From an uncultured Bacilli bacterium (lineage in GTDB: Bacteria > Bacillota_I > Bacilli_A > RF39 > UBA660): a stretch of 64,000 bases of DNA. Position numbers and translations under genes: made by a program. The stretch is from the NCBI GenBank assembly GCA_934085585.1, contig CAKOHI010000001.1, positions 76,172-140,171 of the forward strand. The letters run 5' to 3'. The notes beneath the pieces were generated by a model. The model ran no database searches. It saw nothing but the letters and a program-made list of their open reading frames with translations, and was not told the DNA's origin. Within the stretch, counting starts at the first letter, position 1. Every line of letters starts with the position of its first letter. Below are positions 15,984 through 63,628 of the stretch, piece by piece.

Positions 15984-16759
15984 TGTTTCACGTGGAACAT
16001 AATGTTAGTAATAATTTTGTAATTTTTATATTTTAGTTATTATAAAATAATTTTATAATTAATTAAATTTTTTTAATTTAAAAATAATTTATATGTTTCA
16101 CGTGAAACATAGTGTTGATAACTTGTGAAATATTTATAATTTTTAATTTATTTATTTTTTTGATTATTATTAATAACAATGATGGATATGATGTTTCACG
16201 TGAAACATCATGTTGATAATTTGTTATTTTATATTAATAATTGTATGTTTTTTGATAATTATTAATTATTATTGATTATTATTTTGAAATGTTTCACGTG
16301 AAACATTGTTGATAAGTAGTTGATATTAATTAATTGGATTTTTTTAATATGATTGATTATAATTTTGCTTCATATACGTTTCACGTGGAACATAATGTTT
16401 ATAGTTTGTTTTTAAAAGTAATAGATTTTATCTTTAAATAATTTGGATTTGTCTATTTTTATTTATATTTACTATGTTCCACGTGAAACATAGTGTTAAT
16501 AATTTGTTAATTACTAGCATATTATAATAAACTAATACTCCTTTATTACAATTTTATAGGTAAATTAAGTGATGTTTCACGTGAAACATCATGTTGATAA
16601 AAAGTTTATTAATTTTAAATAGATCACGCAAATAAATTATATTGTTATCTAATAGCTATGTTCCACGTGAAACATTGTTAATAAATTGTTTATAAAATGA
16701 AGTCAATTTTATTAAGTTTGTTAATATGAAATTTATAAGTATATGTTTCACGTGGAACA
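15984..16759. repeat. tandem array of nine parS (ParB/Spo0J-binding) palindromes, each adjacent to a DnaA-box-like 9-mer
   Basis: 16-mers at 15984-15999, 16093-16108, 16192-16207, 16290-16305, 16377-16392, 16475-16490, 16573-16588, 16659-16674 and 16744-16759; all match TGTTNCACGTGAAACA or its reverse complement; the site at 16475-16490 is the exact B. subtilis consensus TGTTCCACGTGAAACA; the site at 16377-16392 has C in place of T at position 1; spacing 84-118 bp. Confidence 0.8.
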
Positions 16760-27064: not shown

Positions 27065-27265
27065 AGTTTAACAAAGAAGGAAAGAGTAGGTATCATTCGT
27101 TTCATAGAGATTTCTTGGTTGGTGGAAAAGAAAAAATGAAGATATACGAACATGGCTCTGGAGTTAAAATCGGGTAATTACGTTATAAATTTTAAGTTGC
27201 ATGATAAATCATGAATTAAGGTGGTACCGCGGGTTATACTCGTCCTTAGTTTGTGATTTTTTTTT
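27065..27265 (+). promoter_or_regulatory. T-box riboswitch leader (probable Met specifier) controlling dut-metG
   Basis: Conserved T-box sequence AATTAAGGTGGTACCGCGG at 27214-27232, an upstream AGAGTA GA-motif region, and terminator-like pairing ending in a U9 run at 27257-27265. Confidence 0.6.
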
Positions 27266-27275
27266 GGAGGTAAAT

Positions 27276-27773
27276 ATGAGAAAGTTTGAAAAAATAAGTT
27301 ATCCTGAATTTGTTAAAGTTTTTGGAGATAATAAAACTTTGTATGATGATTATATGCTCCCTTTAAGAGGGACAAAGTGTAGTGCAGGTTATGATTTTTT
27401 TGCTATAAAAGATTATGTTATAAAACCAAATGAAATTTTAAAAATACCAACTGGTTATAAAGCTACATTTGAAAGTGATGAAATGCTAATGCTTGTTGTA
27501 AGAAGTAGTATGGGTTTCAAATATAATGTTAGACTTACAAATCAAGTGGGAATAATTGAAAGTGATTATTATAATAATCCTGATAATGAAGGGCATATGT
27601 GGATTTGTCTTCAAAATCATGGAGATAAAGAATATATAATTAATAAGGGAGATGCTTATGCTCAAGGGATATTTGTTAAATTTTTAACAACAGATGATGA
27701 TTGTGTTAATAAAACAAGAATTGGTGGGCTAGGCAGTACAAATAAAAAGAAAGAAGGAAATGAAAATGAATAA
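27276..27773 (+). CDS. dut: dUTP diphosphatase (YncF-type dUTPase family)
   Basis: dUTPase motifs SAGYDF, VVRSSMG, GIIESDY and the C-terminal RIGGLGSTN; GGAGG RBS; the ORF-track start lies upstream inside the leader. Confidence 0.7.
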   Translation: MRKFEKISYPEFVKVFGDNKTLYDDYMLPLRGTKCSAGYDFFAIKDYVIKPNEILKIPTGYKATFESDEMLMLVVRSSMGFKYNVRLTNQVGIIESDYYNNPDNEGHMWICLQNHGDKEYIINKGDAYAQGIFVKFLTTDDDCVNKTRIGGLGSTNKKKEGNENE

Positions 27774-29298
27774 AAAATATTATATTACTACACCAATATA
27801 TTATCCAAGTGCGGATTTTCATATTGGACATTGTTATACAACAATTATTGCAGATGCTATTGCAAGATATAAAAGATTAAATGGCTATGATGTGTTTTTC
27901 CAAACAGGAACTGATGAACATGGAGCAAAAATTGAACAAAAGGCTAAAGATGCTGGTGTAACACCAAAAGAATATGTTGATGTTATAATTGAAAATGCTA
28001 AAAATTTATGGAAAAGTTTAAATATTTCATATGATTATTTTATTAGAACAACTGATGAATCACATGTTAAGGCTGTGCAAGCAATATTTAAAAAATTATA
28101 TGATAAAGGAGATATTTATAAAGGTTCTTATGAAGGTTTATATTGTGTTCCGTGTGAATCATTTTGGACTGAAACTCAACTTGTGGATGGAAAATGTCCA
28201 GATTGTGGTCGTGAAGTTAAAACAGTTACTGAAGAAGCTTACTTTTTTAGATTATCAAAATACCAAGACAAATTAATTGAATTATATGATAAGAATCCTG
28301 AATTTATTTTACCAGTTTCAAGAAAAAATGAACTTGTAAATAATTTCATTAAACCAGGACTTGAAGATTTATGCGTATCAAGAACTTCAGTTAAATGGGG
28401 AATTCCTGTAGATTTTGACCCTAAACACGTGATTTATGTTTGGATTGATGCTTTATCAAACTATATTACTTCTTTAGGTTATCCAGATGAAAATGCCCCA
28501 TTATTTAAAAAATATTGGCCAGCAGACTTACATTTAGTTGGTAAAGAAATTACAAGATTCCATGCAATTATTTGGCCTGCACTTTTAATGGCTTTAGGAA
28601 TTGAAATACCTCACCAAGTGTTTGGACATGGATGGTTAATTATTAATGGTGGTAAAATCTCTAAATCATTAGGTAATTATAAAGACCCTCGAGAATATAT
28701 AGAAGCTTATGGTGTTGATGCAGTTAGATATTTTGCATTAAGAGAGGTATCTTTTGGTAGTGATGGTAATTTCTCTGAAGAAGCTTTAATTAATAGAACA
28801 AATACAGATTTAGTAAATAATTTAGGAAACTTGATTAATAGAACTATAAGCATGAGTCATAAATACTTTGATGGAGTGGTAGAAAATCCAAAAGTAAATG
28901 AAGATATTGATACTGACTTAATTAGTGCTGTTACAAGTTTAAAATCTAAAGTTGATGAAAAAATGGATGGTTTAAAAGTAAATGAAGCTTTAGAAGAAAT
29001 ATTTGAAGTATTAAAAAGATGTAATAAATATATTGATGAAACTACACCATGGATTCTTGCTAAAGATGATGCAAAACATGACAGATTAAAAACGGTTTTA
29101 TATAATATTTTAGAAAGTATTAGAGTTTGTGCAATACTTCTTGAGCCATTTATTAATGTAACAAGTGAAAAAATATTAGATGAACTTAATACAAAGGAAA
29201 GAAGCATTGAAAGTATAAATGAATTTGGTAATTTAGAATGTGGAATTACTTTAAATAAACCAGAAATCTTATTTAATAGGATTGAGATAAATGAATAA
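27760..29298 (+). CDS. metG: methionine--tRNA ligase
   Basis: HIGH motif (DFHIGHCYT), KMSKS (KISKSLGN) and a CPDC zinc knuckle. Confidence 0.9.
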   Translation: MKMNKKYYITTPIYYPSADFHIGHCYTTIIADAIARYKRLNGYDVFFQTGTDEHGAKIEQKAKDAGVTPKEYVDVIIENAKNLWKSLNISYDYFIRTTDESHVKAVQAIFKKLYDKGDIYKGSYEGLYCVPCESFWTETQLVDGKCPDCGREVKTVTEEAYFFRLSKYQDKLIELYDKNPEFILPVSRKNELVNNFIKPGLEDLCVSRTSVKWGIPVDFDPKHVIYVWIDALSNYITSLGYPDENAPLFKKYWPADLHLVGKEITRFHAIIWPALLMALGIEIPHQVFGHGWLIINGGKISKSLGNYKDPREYIEAYGVDAVRYFALREVSFGSDGNFSEEALINRTNTDLVNNLGNLINRTISMSHKYFDGVVENPKVNEDIDTDLISAVTSLKSKVDEKMDGLKVNEALEEIFEVLKRCNKYIDETTPWILAKDDAKHDRLKTVLYNILESIRVCAILLEPFINVTSEKILDELNTKERSIESINEFGNLECGITLNKPEILFNRIEINE

Positions 29299-30061
29299 TT
29301 ATTTTGTTGATACACATTGTCATGTATTTAAATCTGATTATGCAAACATAGATGAAATACTAGAAAATGCAAGTAACAAATATATAAAATATGTTATTAA
29401 TAATGGAAGTAATAATGAAACTAATAAAGAGGTATTAGAATTGATTAAAAAATATCCGAATATGTATGGTGCAATTGGTATTCATCCAGAAGATGTTGAA
29501 GGGGTAATGCCAGATGACATTAAGTTTATAGAAGATAATTTAGGTAATGAAAAAATTGTTGCAATCGGAGAAATTGGTTTAGATTATTACTATACTAAAG
29601 AAAATAAAGAAGAACAAATTAAATTATTTGAATCTCAATTAGCTTTAGCAGAAAAATATAATATGCCCGTGATTGTTCATTCAAGAGATGCAACCGAAGA
29701 TACAATTAATTCTTTAAAAAAGTTTAAGTGTAAAGGTGTAATTCATTCTTTTTCTGGTAGTTTAGAAACTGCAAAAATTTATATTAAAATGGGTTATTTA
29801 TTAGGTGTTAATGGTGTTATTACATTTAAAAATGCTAAAATTAAAGATGTGATAAAAGAAGTTGGACTTAAAAATATTGTTTTGGAAACTGATAGTCCAT
29901 ATCTTACTCCGGTACCTTTTAGAGGTACACAAAACAATCCTGGTCATGTTTTAGAAATAGCACAATTTGTAGCAGATTTATATAATATTTCATTAGAAGA
30001 ATTAGCAGAACAAACAAATAAAAATATTACAGAAATGTATAAAAAGATAAAGTTGGATTAA
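29291..30061 (+). CDS. tatD: TatD-family metal-dependent DNase/hydrolase
   Basis: DTHCH start, GEIGLDYY motif and HSR/HSF metal ligands. Confidence 0.85.
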   Translation: MNNYFVDTHCHVFKSDYANIDEILENASNKYIKYVINNGSNNETNKEVLELIKKYPNMYGAIGIHPEDVEGVMPDDIKFIEDNLGNEKIVAIGEIGLDYYYTKENKEEQIKLFESQLALAEKYNMPVIVHSRDATEDTINSLKKFKCKGVIHSFSGSLETAKIYIKMGYLLGVNGVITFKNAKIKDVIKEVGLKNIVLETDSPYLTPVPFRGTQNNPGHVLEIAQFVADLYNISLEELAEQTNKNITEMYKKIKLD

Positions 30062-30080
30062 TTTTCAACTTTATCTTTTT

Positions 30081-30350
30081 TTGACTAATTTAAAGTAGAC
30101 TCCCTGACTAATTTAAAGTAGACCCCCTGACTAATTTAAAGTAGACCTCCTGACTAATTTAAAGTAGACCTCCTGACTAATTTAAAGTAGACCCCTTGAC
30201 TAATTTAAAGTAGACCCCTGACTAATTTAAAGTAGACCCCTTGACTAATTTAAAGTAGACCTCCTGACTAATTTAAAGTAGACCTCCTGACTAATTTAAA
30301 GTAGACCTCCTGACTAATTTAAAGTAGACCCCCTGACTAATTTAAAATTC
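30081..30350. repeat. tandem direct repeat, about 12 copies of the 23-bp unit TGACTAATTTAAAGTAGACCYCC
   Basis: TGACTA recurs at 30081, 30104, 30128, 30151, 30174, 30197, 30219, 30242, 30265, 30288, 30311 and 30335 (period 22-24 bp); variation is confined to the CYCC tail. Confidence 0.9.
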
Positions 30351-30370
30351 ACATATAAAGATATAGATTA

Positions 30371-30399
30371 TTGATATAGATTAAAAATTAGTGTATAAT
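30371..30399 (+). promoter_or_regulatory. sigma-A-type promoter for the downstream surface-protein gene
   Basis: TTGATA, 17-bp spacer, TATAAT; located between the repeat array and the RBS AAGGAG. Confidence 0.5.
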
Positions 30400-30422
30400 T
30401 AAATTAATAATAAGGAGTAGAA

Positions 30423-31883
30423 ATGAAAAAAAATATTTTGTTAGTTGGGCTATTATTATTAGTTGTATTCATGCCAAATAAAGTGTTTGCATTAAGTAAT
30501 GATGAGATTATTAATATAATAGCTACAGATGGAAAAAATGCGGTATTTAAAATGAAACAACCTACTAGTGAAAAAGAAGCAAAGGTAAATTTAAACAATT
30601 ATGTTAATTATGTGTTACAGAATTATGGATATTTTGCAGATATAATATGTGATAGTGAAACATATTCTAAATGTGATTTAAATATTTATAGTAGTGATTA
30701 TGAATCATCTTATGATGTAAATCTTAAAGATTATGTAACTAAAAAGGGATGGACAAGTAAGTATGCTATTAATGTAACTTATGATGCACCGAAAGAAAAT
30801 GCAAATATTAATAAAATTGTAGAAAATATTACTGGCCTTCCTGAAGAGTGGGATAGGAATGATGTTCCTAAATATTATATTTTATCGGATTTATCCTTGA
30901 TAAATTATCATTATAATTATTCAAAATATTTATATAATTTTGGATCTACTAAAATAGCATTTAAATATAGTTCTTTAAATAACTTTCTTTATGGAACTAA
31001 TATAGAAGTTTATTTGGATCTTGTTACTGGAGAAGATGATTCAGAAAATATGATAAGTTTTGGATTTGGGCCGATGAGCATATTTTATGATGGATACTTA
31101 TATGCCACAAAAAACGAAGGTATTTATTTAAGGAGATTATTATATATTCCAGAAGATACTCCGGATACACCGGAAGATTATGTGAAAGCTGCACAAAAGA
31201 GAATTAATGATTATTTAAAAAATGATTTTGTTAAAGTTACATATGGAGGTAAAATTGCTGATATAAGACCTAATGAAGAAGATGCTTATATACCAATAGA
31301 AACCGATGGAAATTATTATGATTTTCAATTTGGAGATAATCATTTTATGTTTTATATTGTAAAAGGAAATGCTGAACAATTAAAAGCGCCTGTATATTTA
31401 AGTAGTGATATAAATACAAATATAGAAGTTGAAACAAATGATTCATCAGTGCCTTTAGATACAATAATTAAAGTGAAAGATGTTACTTCCGAATTTACAA
31501 AGGAAATGATTGGAACAGAAAACTTTGTATCTTATGATATAAAATTATATTCTAATAGTTTAGCAGCACACGTTGAAAAGCTTGATTCAGGAACATTTGT
31601 TGTAAAAATACCTATACCTGAAATGTTAAATGGTAAAAAATTAATTGTTTATTATTTTGACGAGGATAATAATAAAATATCATATGATGTTACAATAAAA
31701 AATGGGTTTGCTGAATTTAATACTAATCATTTTAGTGTTTATACTTTAGCTGAATACGAAGATAATGTTAATGAAGTCATAGAAAATCCTTCTACATCAG
31801 ATAGTGTAATGTTGTATTTTTCTTTAAGTTTATTAAGTGTGGTAGGAATGGTTATTGTTTCAAAAAAAATAATTAATAAATAA
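30423..31883 (+). CDS. secreted/cell-surface protein with signal peptide and C-terminal membrane anchor (486 aa)
   Basis: Signal peptide MKKNILLVGLLLLVVFMPNKVFA; C-terminal hydrophobic segment followed by basic KKIINK; no LPXTG motif. Confidence 0.6.
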   Translation: MKKNILLVGLLLLVVFMPNKVFALSNDEIINIIATDGKNAVFKMKQPTSEKEAKVNLNNYVNYVLQNYGYFADIICDSETYSKCDLNIYSSDYESSYDVNLKDYVTKKGWTSKYAINVTYDAPKENANINKIVENITGLPEEWDRNDVPKYYILSDLSLINYHYNYSKYLYNFGSTKIAFKYSSLNNFLYGTNIEVYLDLVTGEDDSENMISFGFGPMSIFYDGYLYATKNEGIYLRRLLYIPEDTPDTPEDYVKAAQKRINDYLKNDFVKVTYGGKIADIRPNEEDAYIPIETDGNYYDFQFGDNHFMFYIVKGNAEQLKAPVYLSSDINTNIEVETNDSSVPLDTIIKVKDVTSEFTKEMIGTENFVSYDIKLYSNSLAAHVEKLDSGTFVVKIPIPEMLNGKKLIVYYFDEDNNKISYDVTIKNGFAEFNTNHFSVYTLAEYEDNVNEVIENPSTSDSVMLYFSLSLLSVVGMVIVSKKIINK

Positions 31884-31985
31884 AAAATTAGGATGCAAAA
31901 CTCTAATTTTTTTTGTAAAATATTGTCAATTGCTTTATTAACATAATAATGATATAATTAAGTTGTCCAGAAAGGTGGATAATTA

Positions 31986-32513
31986 ATGAGAATTATAAAT
32001 TATTTTATTAGAATGTCAGTAATTATATTTGTTTTAGTAATTGCTAAAAGTAGTTCTGATATAAAAATAGCTACGGTAGAAAATGATAATTTAAATAAAA
32101 CTGTTAATTTAACTACGATGGCTATGAAAATAATAGAAGTTGAAGATACAATTAAATATACTCCGATAGCAACTTATACTGGAGATTTAACTGGGTATGC
32201 TTATAATTGTCCTTTGTGTGGAGGGACACTTGGGTGTATGCCAAAATATAATATTAAAGATGGAACAACAACTTATGATGACTATGAATATGGTACAGTT
32301 AATATTGTTGCATCAAGTAAAAACTTACCATGTGGTTCTATTGTTAGATTTTCTAGTAATAAAGTTGGTGAAGGAGAAAGTTTTGCAATTGTATTAGATC
32401 GTGGAGTTCGTGGTTATTCATTAGATTTACTTACTCCGAGTGAAGAATATGCTTCTAAATATATTGGAAGAAGTCAAATAACATATGATGTTTTAAGGAG
32501 CGGGTGGGAATAA
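31986..32513 (+). CDS. 3D-domain protein (YabE/MltA-like)
   Basis: N-terminal signal anchor and C-terminal 3D-domain pattern (TGYAYNCPLCGG...VASS...GS...LDRGVRG...LDL); position after tatD matches Bacillus yabE. Confidence 0.6.
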   Translation: MRIINYFIRMSVIIFVLVIAKSSSDIKIATVENDNLNKTVNLTTMAMKIIEVEDTIKYTPIATYTGDLTGYAYNCPLCGGTLGCMPKYNIKDGTTTYDDYEYGTVNIVASSKNLPCGSIVRFSSNKVGEGESFAIVLDRGVRGYSLDLLTPSEEYASKYIGRSQITYDVLRSGWE

Positions 32514-61891: not shown

Positions 61892-63565
61892 GTGATTACT
61901 TTGCATAAAAATATAGAAGAACTAAATAGAATTTTGGATGAACTATTATTAAATCCAGAAAATGAATGTGTAGAATTTAAAAAGGCAAAAAATAGTTTCG
62001 ATATGGATGTATTAGGTAAATATTTTTCCGCTTTGGGTAATGAAGCAAATTTAAAAAATAAGCAATATTCTTGGATAATTTTGGGTATTGATGACAAATC
62101 ACATGAATTAACTGGTACTAATTATTTTAATGATAATAATTTTAATAAAGTGAAGAAACAAATTTCTGATAATACAACTGATAATATAGGTTTTATTGAA
62201 ATATATGAGTTTAAGAAAAATAATAAAAGAGTTATTATGTTTCAGGTTCCTGCTGCTTCTGGTACACCAATTAATTGGAAAGGGTTTCCATATGGAAGAA
62301 ATGGCGAATCCATCGTTCCATTAACTTTAAATAAAATTGAACAAATTAAATCAACTGCTAATTGTGATTGGTCTAGACAAGTAATTGATGAAGCCACAAT
62401 AACTAATTTGGATAAAGAAGCAATTGAAGTTGCTAGGCAACAGTTTAAAATAAAACATAAAGGTAAAAATATAGCACTTGAGATAGACAGTTTATCTGAT
62501 ATAGATTTTTTAAATAAAGTAAAATTAACATTGAATAGTAAAATTACTATGGCTTGTATGTTGCTTTTGGGTAAAAATGCTGATGATTATTTAATGAATG
62601 GTTATACACCAAAGTTGACTTGGAAACTTTATGATGAATTTAATGTTGTTGATTATGAACATTTTGGTATACCATTTATTATTAATGTGGAAAAATTAAA
62701 ATCAAAAATACGAAATTTAAGGTATAGATATATGGTTAATGATAATTCTTTGTTTCCAAATGAAGTAGATCAATACGATAACTATATTCTCCGAGAGTTA
62801 ATAAATAATTGTATTGTACATCAAGATTATAGATTACATGGCAATGTAAATGTTATGGAGTATAAGGATAAGTTAATAATAACTAATGAAGGTAATTTTA
62901 TTCCTGAAACGATAGAAAATGTTTTAAAAGACGGTTTTTCATCGCCATATTACAGAAATCAGTTTTTAGCTAATGCTATGGTTAATTTAAATATGATTGA
63001 TACTGTTGGTAGTGGAATAAAAAGAGTTTATGATATTCAGAAGAAAAAGTTTTTTCCGTTGCCTGATTATGATTTAAGTAAGCCTAGTCGTGTTAAAGTT
63101 ACTTTGTATGGAAAGGTAATAGATGAAAAATATAGTAAGATATTATTTGAAAAAACTAATTTGGATATAGATAAAGTAATGTTGTTAGATAGAGTACAAA
63201 AAGGATTTGAAATTACAAAAGAACAAAGTGATTATTTAAGAAAAGACAATTTAATTGAAGGAAGATATCCTTACATTTATATTTCGTCTGATATTGCAAA
63301 AATAACAAATAAAGAAAAGGATTATATTGATAATAAAGGTTTAAACAATACATATTATAAAGATTATATTTTAACATATATTGAAAAGTTTGGAAAAGCT
63401 ACAAGGGAAGATATTAATAATTTGATTTACCCTAAATTGCCAATAAATATGAGTGATAAAAATAAAAATAATAGGGTTAGATATATTATATCTCAATTGA
63501 AAAAAGAAAATAAAATAGAAAATCAAGGTTCGTTAACAAAATCCTCTTGGGTTAAAAAAAAATAA
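61892..63565 (+). CDS. AlbA_2 (Schlafen-like divergent AAA) domain protein with RecG-C-terminal-like/HATPase_c_4 region; putative DNA-binding regulator (about 555 aa)
   Basis: N-terminal E.ECVEFKKAK...LGKYFSALGNEANL pattern typical of AlbA_2 domain proteins; TTG at 61901 is a possible alternative start. Confidence 0.45.
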   Translation: MITLHKNIEELNRILDELLLNPENECVEFKKAKNSFDMDVLGKYFSALGNEANLKNKQYSWIILGIDDKSHELTGTNYFNDNNFNKVKKQISDNTTDNIGFIEIYEFKKNNKRVIMFQVPAASGTPINWKGFPYGRNGESIVPLTLNKIEQIKSTANCDWSRQVIDEATITNLDKEAIEVARQQFKIKHKGKNIALEIDSLSDIDFLNKVKLTLNSKITMACMLLLGKNADDYLMNGYTPKLTWKLYDEFNVVDYEHFGIPFIINVEKLKSKIRNLRYRYMVNDNSLFPNEVDQYDNYILRELINNCIVHQDYRLHGNVNVMEYKDKLIITNEGNFIPETIENVLKDGFSSPYYRNQFLANAMVNLNMIDTVGSGIKRVYDIQKKKFFPLPDYDLSKPSRVKVTLYGKVIDEKYSKILFEKTNLDIDKVMLLDRVQKGFEITKEQSDYLRKDNLIEGRYPYIYISSDIAKITNKEKDYIDNKGLNNTYYKDYILTYIEKFGKATREDINNLIYPKLPINMSDKNKNNRVRYIISQLKKENKIENQGSLTKSSWVKKK

Positions 63566-63573
63566 TTTGTTTT

Positions 63574-63628
63574 GCAAAGAATTCGCAAAGAATTCGCAAA
63601 GAATTCGCAAAGAATTCGCAAAGAATTA
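63574..63628. repeat. 11-bp tandem repeat GCAAAGAATTC, five copies (each carries an EcoRI site)
   Basis: Perfect period-11 direct repeats immediately downstream of the 61892-63565 gene. Confidence 0.85.

What the first reader, a model, noticed from the sequence alone, without database searches (positions are those of the whole stretch)
30081..30350. Twelve-copy 23-bp tandem repeat immediately upstream of the promoter of a secreted-protein gene
The unit TGACTAATTTAAAGTAGACCYCC repeats head-to-tail about 12 times with period 22-24 bp, and variation is confined to the C/T-rich tail. The array ends about 20 bp before a consensus-like promoter (TTGATA-17-TATAAT at 30371-30399) of a gene for a signal-peptide protein with a C-terminal membrane anchor. 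It is neither CRISPR-like (no spacers) nor coding. Candidate roles are an iterated transcription-factor binding array, a curvature/UP-type element, or a variable-number repeat giving phase or strength variation of the surface protein.
Basis: seen in the sequence. Interest (0 to 1): 0.6.

Follow-up and report, generated by a model that had tools for sequence, protein, structure and literature searches.

The report
Orphaned defence-gene operator repeat array
The 12-copy 23-bp repeat is real and varies in copy number between strains, but it is a stranded, expanded copy of the repeated promoter/binding-site module that normally precedes a very common candidate phage-defence ATPase gene, which in this genome has been replaced by a secreted-protein gene.

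Summary
The array is confirmed: window 30081-30347 holds 11 full units and one truncated unit, period 23 bp, in an uncultured gut Bacilli genome (26% GC). It lies directly after the tatD terminator.

Sister lineages carry the same array at the same place with 2-6 copies. There the last copy's TTGACT is the -35 box of a TTGACT-17-TGnTATAAT promoter. That promoter drives an AAA_14/DUF4143 ATPase-nuclease gene (PADLOC candidate defence system PDC-S01).

The same core, read on the other strand, recurs at 22-bp phasing at the promoters of ATPases only 30% identical. These are in GC-rich freshwater bacteria and on Rhizobium, Mesorhizobium and Tateyamaria plasmids. Repeat pairs are enriched upstream of the family generally (23/40 against 1/40 controls).

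The 13-bp core is invariant and the tail varies. Only the promoter-proximal copy is held to TTGACT. So the unit is most likely an iterated operator for the ATPase itself; binding is inferred, not shown.

In the window the ATPase gene and its -10 box are gone. A 486-aa secreted-protein gene with its own promoter occupies the slot. The orphan array has expanded to 12 or at least 13 copies, against 2-3 in other conspecific contigs.

The functional link to the secreted-protein gene is not.

The parts
29291..30061 (+). tatD-family gene; fixed left border of the variable slot
   Evidence: ORF of 256 aa. Pfam TatD_DNase, E 3.2e-77. Syntenic in all related loci.
30041..30080 (+). Terminator-like hairpin of tatD. 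It spans the stop codon, and its T-run continues into the first TTGACT of the array.
   Evidence: Fold energy -18.2 kcal/mol, z -7.1. The hairpin is kept in L002 (-18.5) and L085 (-12.4) despite sequence changes in both arms. The consensus terminator scan missed it; its criteria require a loop of 3-8 nt.
30081..30347 (+). The array: 11 full units of [T/C]TGACTAATTTAAAGTAGACCYC plus a truncated 12th unit (CTGACTAATTTAAAA). The core GACTAATTTAAAG is invariant.
   Evidence: The core is invariant in 48/48 units of arrays found independently of the motif, while the tail varies up to 1.76 bits. No sigma-70-like site is called inside the array.
30333..30359 (+). Decayed remnant of the ancestral ATPase promoter (inferred): CTGACT, a 15-nt spacer, then TATAAA
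   Evidence: Read from the sequence. Compared with the intact TTGACT-17-TGnTATAAT at the same position in L001, L002 and L003. The last copy starts CT in 5/5 window-type arrays but TT in 18/19 ATPase-linked arrays.
30371..30399 (+). Own promoter of the 486-aa gene: TTGATA-17-TATAAT
   Evidence: Promoter scan, 11/12 matches. This segment is absent from lineages with other cargo.
30412..30417 (+). Ribosome-binding site AAGGAG of the 486-aa gene
   Evidence: Read from the sequence, 5 nt before the ATG at 30423.
30423..31883 (+). Cargo gene of this lineage: a 486-aa secreted or membrane-anchored protein of unknown family
   Evidence: ORF. No Pfam, NCBIfam or PADLOC hit. 158 homologs in uncultured Bacilli. 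Absent from all 80 syntenic loci. Homologs sit in other contexts without arrays.
31898..32513 (+). Right border of the slot: conserved promoter region and 175-aa gene (31986-32513) shared by all lineages
   Evidence: Homology with the other lineages resumes about 15 nt after the cargo stop codon. ORF.

Best explanation
The array is an orphaned and expanded copy of a promoter-embedded, iterated operator. That operator belongs to a single-gene cassette encoding an AAA_14 / winged-helix / DUF4143 (PD-(D/E)XK) ATPase-nuclease, which is PADLOC candidate defence system PDC-S01.

In the intact state, seen in sister lineages, each 23-bp unit has three parts: a hexamer (TTGACT), a 13-bp binding core, and a short C-rich spacer. 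The unit length equals the -35 to -10 distance (6 + 17). So the last unit's hexamer serves as the -35 box of a TTGACT-17-TGnTATAAT promoter.

Inferred steps: the ATPase's own winged-helix domain binds the cores. Several protomers load side by side at 2.1-2.2 helical turns, and the gene is autoregulated by occupancy of its -35 box.

Shown by comparison: in the window's lineage the ATPase gene and its -10 box were replaced by a 486-aa secreted-protein gene that has its own promoter. The array was left behind, and its last -35 hexamer decayed to CTGACT.

The array then grew from 2-6 copies to 12 or more, by slippage or unequal recombination between identical units (inferred mechanism). Today it behaves as a copy-number-variable repeat. 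It is probably transcriptionally inert. At most it acts as a decoy for a PDC-S01-type protein encoded elsewhere in the genome.
For: Same array, same place, different cargo. L001, L002 and L003 were found by MetG synteny, not by the motif. They carry 3-5 cores directly after the tatD terminator, and the last core runs into TGTTATAAT and an ATPase gene.

Across 41 distinct arrays the downstream content falls into four classes: the ATPase gene (19 arrays, 2-6 cores), a different insert (6), nothing (2), or the 486-aa gene (5).

More distant relatives have tatD directly followed by the 175-aa gene, with no motif and no cargo. Array plus ATPase is therefore a derived insertion.

The same species can have or lack the ATPase: L183 and L086 have 98% identical flanks. 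A second slot, after a PBP gene, shows the same polymorphism: L092 has the ATPase, while L084, L102 and L110 have only 2 cores.

The link to the ATPase family is deep. ATPases in 62-64% GC freshwater contigs are only 30% identical to the gut Bacilli one, yet carry the identical 16-nt core at 22-bp phasing next to their start codon. On R. etli CFN42 p42f and on Mesorhizobium and Tateyamaria plasmids, 3-4 direct TTTCAAWTNGTCA repeats at 22 bp have TTGACT fused to one repeat. Near-perfect repeat pairs occur upstream of 23/40 family members against 1/40 coding controls (p = 4e-8), or 17/34 when motif-ascertained loci are excluded. The neighbouring genes differ in every case, so the ATPase is the only constant partner.

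Evidence for a binding site rather than a promoter element. The core is invariant in 48/48 units while the tail varies. TT is kept in 18/19 promoter-proximal copies against 31/61 other copies (p = 4e-4).

The protein plausibly binds DNA. ArsR, MarR, HTH_24, HTH_36, GntR and IclR models weakly hit family members, at residues 222-251 in the L001 protein. A PDB MarR regulator matches profile positions 225-275, and the Card1 nuclease matches 289-383.

Expansion in the orphan state: 12 cores in the window and in the independent contig L171, and at least 13 in L169.
Against: No binding or expression experiment exists. The structure prediction failed (pLDDT 35), so the winged helix rests on weak profile matches.

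The Bacilli arrays are inverted relative to the gene compared with the proteobacterial and PVC-type arrays. This needs an orientation-tolerant binder.

The putative recognition helices of the two clades differ although their core is identical (sequences).

Orphan arrays keep perfect cores. That could mean continuing selection, and so a present function, rather than decay. However, loci found through the motif search are biased towards perfect cores.

The 3-core contigs L116 and L170 consist of units 1, 2 and the last unit, which is what a short-read collapse would produce. Part of the apparent copy-number variation may therefore be technical.

Whether the source genome encodes a PDC-S01 ATPase outside the 64-kb window is unknown. 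None is found inside it.
Confidence: 0.66

Rival explanations
1. One reading: the array is a cis-regulatory element of the 486-aa secreted-protein gene. It would be a transcription-factor landing array, a UP/curvature element, or a copy-number switch that tunes or phase-varies the surface protein.
For: The array ends 23 bp upstream of that gene's -35 box. Copy number differs among conspecific contigs: 2, 3, 12 and at least 13. The longest arrays are seen only in this lineage. That is compatible with selection after co-option.
Against: The array is older than the gene at this locus and accompanies three other cargo states. Homologs of the 486-aa protein in three other contexts have no motif or 23-bp repeat upstream. 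The gene has a complete 11/12 promoter and RBS of its own. The repeats lie outside the -35/-10 spacer, so they cannot change promoter geometry. A 23-bp period is out of helical phase, about 69 degrees per unit, so planar curvature is not expected.
Confidence: 0.17
2. The array is still functional in trans or as a DNA site. One version: a decoy or titration array for a PDC-S01-type protein encoded elsewhere or brought in by mobile elements. Another version: a recombination or cleavage hot spot, a 'landing pad' at whose promoter-proximal edge cargo genes are exchanged.
For: Cores stay perfect in orphan arrays while tails diverge. Three cargo states (different insert, empty, 486-aa gene) all have their left breakpoint within about 15 bp of the end of the last core. 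A second chromosomal slot shows arrays with and without the gene. The protein carries a PD-(D/E)XK nuclease domain next to the putative DNA-binding domain.
Against: There are only three or four events. The breakpoints may descend from one ancestral empty allele. Perfect cores in motif-ascertained loci are biased, and identical units in the window reflect recent expansion. No PDC-S01 gene is present in the window, and the rest of the genome cannot be searched.
Confidence: 0.13
3. The array is an iteron-type replication origin or a partition centromere of an integrated plasmid-like element.
For: The anatomy resembles lactococcal theta-plasmid origins: 22-bp direct repeats x3.5, then a TGNTATAAT promoter, upstream of the gene for the binding protein (PMC3138775). 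L001 has 3.65 units followed by TGTTATAAT.
Against: The downstream gene is AAA_14/DUF4143, not a Rep or Par protein. The flanks are conserved chromosomal housekeeping genes: metG, tatD and ksgA. No match in 72,556 plasmid records. No rep, par or mobilisation gene lies in the slot.
Confidence: 0.02
4. It is an artefact or another class of repeat: an assembly error, a degenerate CRISPR array, or a structured or small-RNA gene.
For: Short-read assemblers do mishandle such repeats: L172 breaks inside the array and L169 has a scaffold gap within it.
Against: L171 is an independent contig of different length and reproduces all 12 units with the same internal variants. The units are contiguous with no spacers. 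Rfam gives no hit there. Both strands fold worse than shuffles, z +2.05 and +1.81.
Confidence: 0.02

Closest known systems
Iterons of lactococcal theta-replicating plasmids (pCI305 family): 22-bp direct repeats x3.5 upstream of repB
   Same: Direct head-to-tail repeats of 22-23 bp, 3.5-5 copies. A partial last copy merges into an extended -10 (TGNTATAAT) promoter of the adjacent gene. The repeats are thought to be bound by that gene's product (PMC3138775; compare L001).
   Different: The locus is chromosomal. The adjacent gene is an AAA_14/DUF4143 ATPase-nuclease, not a Rep protein. No AT-rich unwinding region or origin function is evident. In the window the partner gene is absent and the copy number is 12.
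Centromere/operator arrays of plasmid partition and omega-type regulators: R1 parC with ParR, pSM19035 omega heptads (from my own knowledge, not checked here)
   Same: Many short direct or inverted repeats overlap the promoter of the operon. They are bound cooperatively by the encoded DNA-binding protein for autoregulation. Orientation-tolerant sites occur for omega.
   Different: Those binders are small ribbon-helix-helix proteins and their units are 7-11 bp. Here the presumed binder is a winged helix inside an AAA+ ATPase-nuclease, the units are 22-23 bp, and no segregation ATPase or filament partner is present.
Promoter-proximal variable-number repeats controlling surface proteins: H. influenzae hmw1A/hmw2A 7-bp repeats, N. 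meningitidis nadA TAAA tract (from my own knowledge, not checked here)
   Same: A copy-number-variable tandem repeat upstream of a surface or secreted protein gene, with differences between strains.
   Different: Those units are 1-7 bp and act on the adjacent promoter. Here the unit is 23 bp and derives from another gene's operator and -35 box. It lies outside the downstream promoter, and no effect on expression is shown.
Clusters of initiator-binding sites next to AAA+ initiator genes and titration loci: DnaA boxes at the dnaA promoter, datA; ORB elements next to orc1/cdc6 (from my own knowledge, not checked here)
   Same: An AAA+ protein with a helix-turn-helix type domain. Arrays of its sites lie at its own gene's promoter for autoregulation. 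Separate site clusters can act as sinks.
   Different: There is no evidence that PDC-S01 proteins are initiators. The sites are strictly phased tandem repeats. The family carries a PD-(D/E)XK nuclease domain and is classed as a defence candidate.

Membership tests
Promoter-embedded repeat operator of PDC-S01 (AAA_14/DUF4143) genes, as defined here | Core motif GACTAATTTAAAG(T), equal to the reverse complement of ACTTTAAATTAGTC | tested here: met
   11 perfect cores and 1 with a single mismatch in the window. The core aligns with ATPase-linked arrays in L001-L003, L081, L107 and L111, and with the related TTTCAAWTNGTCA repeats on alphaproteobacterial plasmids.
Promoter-embedded repeat operator of PDC-S01 (AAA_14/DUF4143) genes, as defined here | Direct repeats phased at 22-23 bp | tested here: met
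   Spacings are 23 bp ten times and 22 bp once. Sister arrays use 23 bp. Freshwater, plasmid and L149 arrays use 22 bp.
Promoter-embedded repeat operator of PDC-S01 (AAA_14/DUF4143) genes, as defined here | Directly upstream of an AAA_14/DUF4143 ATPase gene | tested here: not met
   tblastn finds no ATPase homolog in the window. The downstream gene is an unrelated 486-aa protein. The feature is met in the sister lineages. The window array is therefore filed as an orphan derivative, not an intact member.
Promoter-embedded repeat operator of PDC-S01 (AAA_14/DUF4143) genes, as defined here | Last repeat supplies the TTGACT -35 box of a promoter with a proper -10 box at 16-17 nt | tested here: not met
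   The window's last copy is CTGACT, followed after 15 nt by TATAAA. The scan calls no promoter-like site there. 18/19 ATPase-linked arrays keep TTGACT.
Promoter-embedded repeat operator of PDC-S01 (AAA_14/DUF4143) genes, as defined here | Bound by the ATPase's winged-helix domain | not testable with these tools
   Only indirect evidence: weak wHTH profile matches. The structure model was unusable.
Iteron-type plasmid replication origin | Adjacent gene encodes a Rep initiator | tested here: not met
   Pfam finds only AAA_14 and DUF4143 in the sister-lineage gene. The window gene has no family hit.
Iteron-type plasmid replication origin | Located on a plasmid or integrated replicon | tested here: not met
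   The flanks are conserved chromosomal genes: metG, tatD and ksgA. No match in the plasmid collection.
CRISPR array | Repeats separated by unique spacers of similar length | tested here: not met
   The units abut head-to-tail with no spacer.
Variable-number tandem repeat (VNTR / contingency-type repeat) | Copy number differs among strains of one species | tested here: met
   Conspecific contigs with 97-98.5% identical flanks carry 2, 3, 12 and at least 13 cores. An identical ATPase is paired with 4 or 5 cores. Caveat: the 3-core versions could be assembly collapses.
Variable-number tandem repeat (VNTR / contingency-type repeat) | Copy number changes expression of the adjacent gene | not testable with these tools
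   This needs reporter fusions or matched transcriptomes. The repeats lie outside the -35/-10 spacer of the downstream promoter.
Described RNA family or structured RNA | Match to an Rfam model, or a fold more stable than shuffles | tested here: not met
   The only Rfam hits in the window are a T-box and SRP RNA, both elsewhere. Fold z-scores are +2.05 and +1.81.

The most novel reading that the evidence does not exclude
PDC-S01 ATPase-nucleases, reported as the fourth most common defence candidate in prokaryotes and still uncharacterised, would be sequence-specific DNA-binding proteins. Their 13-16-bp site has been kept from Bacilli to Proteobacteria and PVC-type bacteria, and is always arranged in 22-23-bp phased arrays at their own promoter. 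Phages have copied the identical 22-bp unit into their tRNA clusters, either as decoys or as co-opted promoters. The chromosomal arrays would double as cleavage or recombination hot spots where cargo genes are swapped. Orphan arrays such as the 12-copy one in the window would remain active as protein sinks.
Probability: 0.15. Interest if true: 0.8.

Novelty: new variant of a known kind. Interest (0 to 1): 0.55.

Why it matters
Three reasons.

1. The repeat is a footprint of gene turnover at a small variable slot between tatD and a conserved 175-aa gene. It is not a regulator designed for the surface protein.

2. It exposes a conserved cis-element for the AAA_14/DUF4143 (COG1373, PDC-S01) family. 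The searchable literature lists this family's function as unknown (PMC3424549). It is reported to be among the most abundant defence candidates, with experimental validation still pending for most such candidates (PMC12988326). A defined 13-16-bp site makes direct experiments possible: EMSA or footprinting, autoregulation assays, and tests of whether the nuclease acts next to its binding site. Cultured hosts are available, for example Rhizobium etli CFN42 p42f locus RHE_RS29360.

3. Orphan operator arrays that persist and expand after loss of their gene could serve as markers of past defence-gene occupancy. They could also serve as strain-typing loci in uncultured gut Bacilli.

Tried and rejected
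- **Exact 20-mer scan of 185,579 species-representative genomes:** no hit. The source species is not represented with this unit there. Relatives were reached through MetG synteny instead.
- **BLAST of the array against plasmids, and of the phage-type unit pair against cultured phages:** no match. The low-complexity filter may contribute.
- **Rfam scan of the whole window:** only a T-box and SRP RNA, both elsewhere.
- **RNA folding of both strands of the intergenic region:** less stable than shuffles. The structured-RNA idea was rejected.
- **Sigma-70 promoter reading of each unit:** rejected. The scan finds no site inside the array. The next unit's TTGACT lacks the A at position 2 that a -10 box needs.
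- **AlphaFold2 of the ATPase with 26 close homologs:** pLDDT 35, pTM 0.23. The model was discarded and no fold search was run on it.
- **Profile search of solved structures:** no homolog at E 0.01 or below with 8 sequences. With 20 diverse sequences only P-loop, MarR-like and Card1-like fragments matched.
- **Higher-order 137-bp period reported by TRF:** judged uninformative. All units are about 95% alike, so any multiple of the unit scores well.
- **Is the 486-aa gene the ancestral occupant of the slot?** Rejected. It is absent from all 80 syntenic loci, and distant relatives have an empty slot.
- **Literature searches for DUF4143, COG1373, AAA_14 and PDC-S01:** no description of upstream repeats or DNA binding was found in the papers I read; function is listed as unknown.
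Full report
**1.

Window 30081-30347 contains 11 full 23-bp units and one truncated unit of [T/C]TGACTAATTTAAAGTAGACCYC.
- TRF reports period 23, 11.6 copies, 95% matches.
- The 20-mer matches 11 times against 0.02 expected. A 15-mer with up to 2 mismatches matches 12 times, and there is no copy anywhere else in the 64 kb.
- Spacings are 23 bp ten times and 22 bp once.
- Variation is limited to the first base and the C/T tail.

The array begins where the T-run of a strong hairpin ends. That hairpin spans the tatD stop codon (-18.2 kcal/mol, z -7.1) and is conserved in relatives despite changes in both arms.

The array ends 23 bp before TTGATA-17-TATAAT at 30371-30399. An AAGGAG ribosome-binding site and a 486-aa ORF follow.

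**2. Organism and locus.**

The window is 23-31% GC. Its MetG is 97% identical to that of an uncultured Bacilli MAG from Hadza gut metagenomes (L001), and 94% identical to two other gut or rumen MAGs.

The local gene order is metG, tatD, a slot, a conserved 175-aa gene, then ksgA.

**3. The same array sits at the same place in relatives, in front of a different gene.**

L001, L002 and L003 were retrieved by synteny alone. They carry 4, 5 and 3 cores directly after the tatD terminator.

There the last copy reads TTGACT-AATTTAAAGTGTAATGT-TATAAT. This is a near-consensus promoter with a 17-nt spacer and an extended -10 box. A ribosome-binding site and a 404-aa gene follow.

So the repeat unit is the -35 hexamer plus the spacer of that promoter. 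Its 23-bp length is exactly 6 + 17.

The gene product is AAA_14 + DUF4143 (Pfam E 1e-28 and 6e-45). It is a strong match to PADLOC's candidate single-gene defence system PDC-S01 (E 7e-107).

**4. The slot is variable and the array is its constant left edge.**

A metagenome scan for two adjacent cores with free tails, plus protein-based look-ups, gave 41 distinct arrays. After the last core come four alternatives:
- (a) the ATPase promoter and gene: 19 arrays, 2-6 cores;
- (b) about 0.7 kb of unrelated sequence without an intact gene: 6 arrays, 3-6 cores;
- (c) the promoter of the 175-aa gene directly: 2 arrays, 2 cores;
- (d) the window's 486-aa gene with its own promoter: 5 arrays, 2 to at least 12 cores.

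All classes share the right-hand promoter region, and homology resumes about 15 nt after the cargo stop codon. L183 (with the ATPase) and L086 (class b) have 97-98% identical flanks, so the gene is present or absent within one species.

More distant relatives have tatD directly followed by the 175-aa gene, with no motif. The 486-aa gene occurs in none of the 80 syntenic loci.

The most economical history has three steps. An [array + ATPase] cassette entered the slot in an ancestor of this subclade. The gene was later deleted or replaced several times. The array stayed behind each time.

A second slot, downstream of a penicillin-binding-protein gene, shows the same pattern. L092 has 3 cores plus the ATPase. 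L084, L102 and L110 share the same upstream flank and have 2 cores and no ATPase.

**5. The core is a conserved partner of this ATPase family across phyla.**

In 62-64% GC freshwater contigs (L081, L107, L111, L119), three copies of CTGACTAATTTAAAGTC at 22-bp phasing abut the start codon of a 408-409-aa AAA_14/DUF4143 protein. That protein is only 30% identical to the gut Bacilli one. Sixteen bases are identical, in an AT-rich island within GC-rich DNA.

On plasmids of cultured bacteria (Rhizobium etli CFN42 p42f, Mesorhizobium sp. AR02, Tateyamaria omphalii), homologous ATPase genes are preceded by 3-4 direct repeats of TTTCAAWTNGTCA at 22 bp. TTGACT is fused to one repeat, and the -10 box lies between repeats.

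The viral-collection contig L149 has four such repeats. Other clades carry their own direct or inverted pairs over the promoter, for example GACTAATCTAAAAT...TATATTAGTC in L126.

Quantitatively, a 12-mer pair with at least 11 matches lies within 110 bp upstream of 23 of 40 non-redundant family members. The figure is 1 of 40 for coding controls (p = 4e-8), and 17 of 34 after removing loci that were found through the motif.

The genes flanking these ATPases differ every time: soxR, an integrase, a Fic protein and an antitoxin, a histidine kinase, an ABC transporter. The ATPase is therefore the only constant partner.

One complication remains. The Bacilli arrays are the reverse complement of the proteobacterial and PVC-type ones relative to the gene. 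The site is a TGACT-N7-AGTCA quasi-palindrome, and some clades use inverted pairs. An orientation-tolerant binder is therefore plausible, but this is inference.

**6. Binding site, not just a promoter.**

In arrays found without reference to the motif, the 13 core positions are invariant in 48/48 units. Tail positions reach 1.76 bits of entropy.

The two bases that complete TTGACT are TT in 18/19 promoter-proximal copies of ATPase-linked arrays, but in only 31/61 other copies (p = 4e-4). In the window-type arrays the last copy is always CT.

So sigma-factor contact is selected only where a -10 box follows. The core is selected everywhere, which points to a different reader.

The ATPase itself is the obvious candidate. 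ArsR, MarR, HTH_24, HTH_36, GntR and IclR models weakly match family members, at residues 222-251 in the L001 protein. A MarR regulator in the PDB matches profile positions 225-275. The C-terminal part matches the Card1 PD-(D/E)XK nuclease. The invariant columns include E332, D334, E347 and K349.

The DUF4143 domain was already classed in the PD-(D/E)XK superfamily, with function unknown (PMC3424549).

Binding, cooperativity and autorepression are inferred. They were not shown, and the structure prediction was unusable.

**7. What the window holds.**

The ATPase gene and its -10 box are gone, and tblastn finds no homolog in the window.

The last unit is cut after CTGACTAATTTAAAA. It is followed by 15 nt and TATAAA, a plausible decayed remnant of the old promoter. 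The scan calls no promoter-like site inside the array.

The 486-aa gene brought its own promoter. Its homologs (44-48% identical) sit in three unrelated contexts and have neither the motif nor any 23-bp repeat upstream.

The array region is not a structured RNA.

**8. Copy-number behaviour.**

Contigs with 97-98.5% identical flanks, or encoding exactly the same 486-aa protein, show the following:
- 12 cores in L171, identical to the window unit by unit;
- at least 13 cores in L169, interrupted by a scaffold gap (the tatD-to-gene distance is 503 bp against 361 bp in the window);
- a contig end inside the array in L172;
- 3 cores in L116 and L170;
- 2 cores with a different tail in L122.

The 3-core versions equal units 1, 2 and the last unit. 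Because unit 2 is identical to unit 11, this is what a de Bruijn collapse would produce, so they are weak evidence.

The difference between the L122 allele and the 12 or more copy alleles appears real. So do the compositionally distinct 2-6-core arrays in sister species, including 4 versus 5 cores in front of an identical ATPase.

ATPase-linked arrays never exceed 6 cores in this sample. The only arrays with 12 or more are orphans. This fits expansion after release from promoter and operator constraint, by slippage or unequal exchange among identical units (inferred).

**9. Comparison with known systems.**

The closest anatomical match is the origin region of lactococcal theta plasmids. It has 22-bp direct repeats x3.5 followed by a TGNTATAAT promoter of repB, and the repeats are thought to bind RepB (PMC3138775). 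Membership fails on the defining features: there is no Rep gene, the context is chromosomal, and there is no plasmid match.

Functionally it resembles promoter-embedded operator or centromere arrays (ParR/parC, omega) and site clusters next to AAA+ initiator genes. These comparisons come from my own knowledge and are leads, not tests.

As a strain-variable repeat upstream of a surface-protein gene, it superficially resembles contingency repeats. However, its unit is far longer, and it lies outside the downstream promoter.

In the papers I searched and read, I found no description of a conserved upstream repeat or of DNA binding for DUF4143/COG1373/PDC-S01. PDC-S01 is reported as the fourth most common defence candidate across prokaryotes, with validation pending for most such candidates (PMC12988326).

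**10. Verdict.**

The feature is real, and its origin is explained with good confidence. It is an orphaned, expanded operator and -35 array of a PDC-S01 cassette, sitting at a small cargo-exchange slot.

Its present role is most likely none, or that of a passive protein sink. A regulatory effect on the 486-aa gene is possible but unsupported.

The wider observation is the more valuable result and is directly testable: a phylum-spanning, phased repeat operator tied to an abundant uncharacterised defence candidate, with the identical unit also present in phage tRNA clusters.

Noticed in passing
window 15984-16759: Nine parS-like sites (TGTTTCACGTGAAACA, 0-2 mismatches) at roughly 86-110-bp spacing in one AT-rich non-coding stretch, against 0.04 expected by chance. 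TRF also reports a 98-bp period at 16047-16224. The cumulative GC skew has its minimum near 6 kb, so this is probably the origin-proximal region. Such a dense, regularly spaced parS cluster looked unusual to me.
   Followed up: partly
window 63574-63627: A perfect 11-bp tandem repeat GCAAAGAATTC x4.9, each unit containing GAATTC. It starts 9 bp after the stop of a 557-aa ORF (61892-63565) and lies in an AT-rich intergenic region.
   Followed up: no
L123 2688-2722 (also L124, L099; related pairs in L088 and L103): Freshwater phage-type contigs carry two copies of the same 22-bp unit (CTGACTAATTTAAAGTCTAAAC) that precedes the ATPase gene in L111. In the phage the pair lies inside a cluster of eight tRNA genes, between tRNA-Ser and tRNA-Lys. 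It abuts the 5' end of tRNA-Lys in the same orientation as at the ATPase start codon. It could be a captured promoter/operator, a decoy or a target.
   Followed up: partly
L092 versus L084, L102 and L110 (array at L084 3341-3376): A second chromosomal slot in gut Bacilli, downstream of a penicillin-binding-protein gene and upstream of efp. L092 has 3 cores plus the ATPase gene (apparently frameshifted). The other three contigs share the same upstream flank but have only 2 cores and no ATPase.
   Followed up: partly
window 30347; L086 about 3586; L083 and L108 after the last core: The left breakpoints of three different cargo states (486-aa gene, unrelated insert, empty) all fall within about 15 bp of the end of the last core. 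This could mean one ancestral empty allele, or a recombination-prone edge of the array next to a nuclease-encoding gene.
   Followed up: partly
L105 2711-2769; L121 1111-1147; L118 926-984: Further motif pairs or triplets without an intact ATPase gene nearby. By eye, the flank of L105's array matches the start of the L081 ATPase gene, but no intact ATPase ORF follows. L121 is a GC-rich contig and L118 is a 24% GC gut contig; neither has an ATPase within 2.5 kb. These are probably more orphan arrays.
   Followed up: no
window 27065-27250: A T-box leader (106 bits) lies upstream of a 190-aa ORF (27201-27773) that directly precedes metG. The listed ORF start overlaps the leader, so the true start is probably an internal methionine.
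   Followed up: no
L183 2450-2626 (also L184, L185, L186): In the lineage whose ATPase is 88% identical to L001's, a 58-aa ORF on the opposite strand lies just downstream of the ATPase gene. Homology with the ATPase-less allele (L086) resumes inside this region.
   Followed up: no
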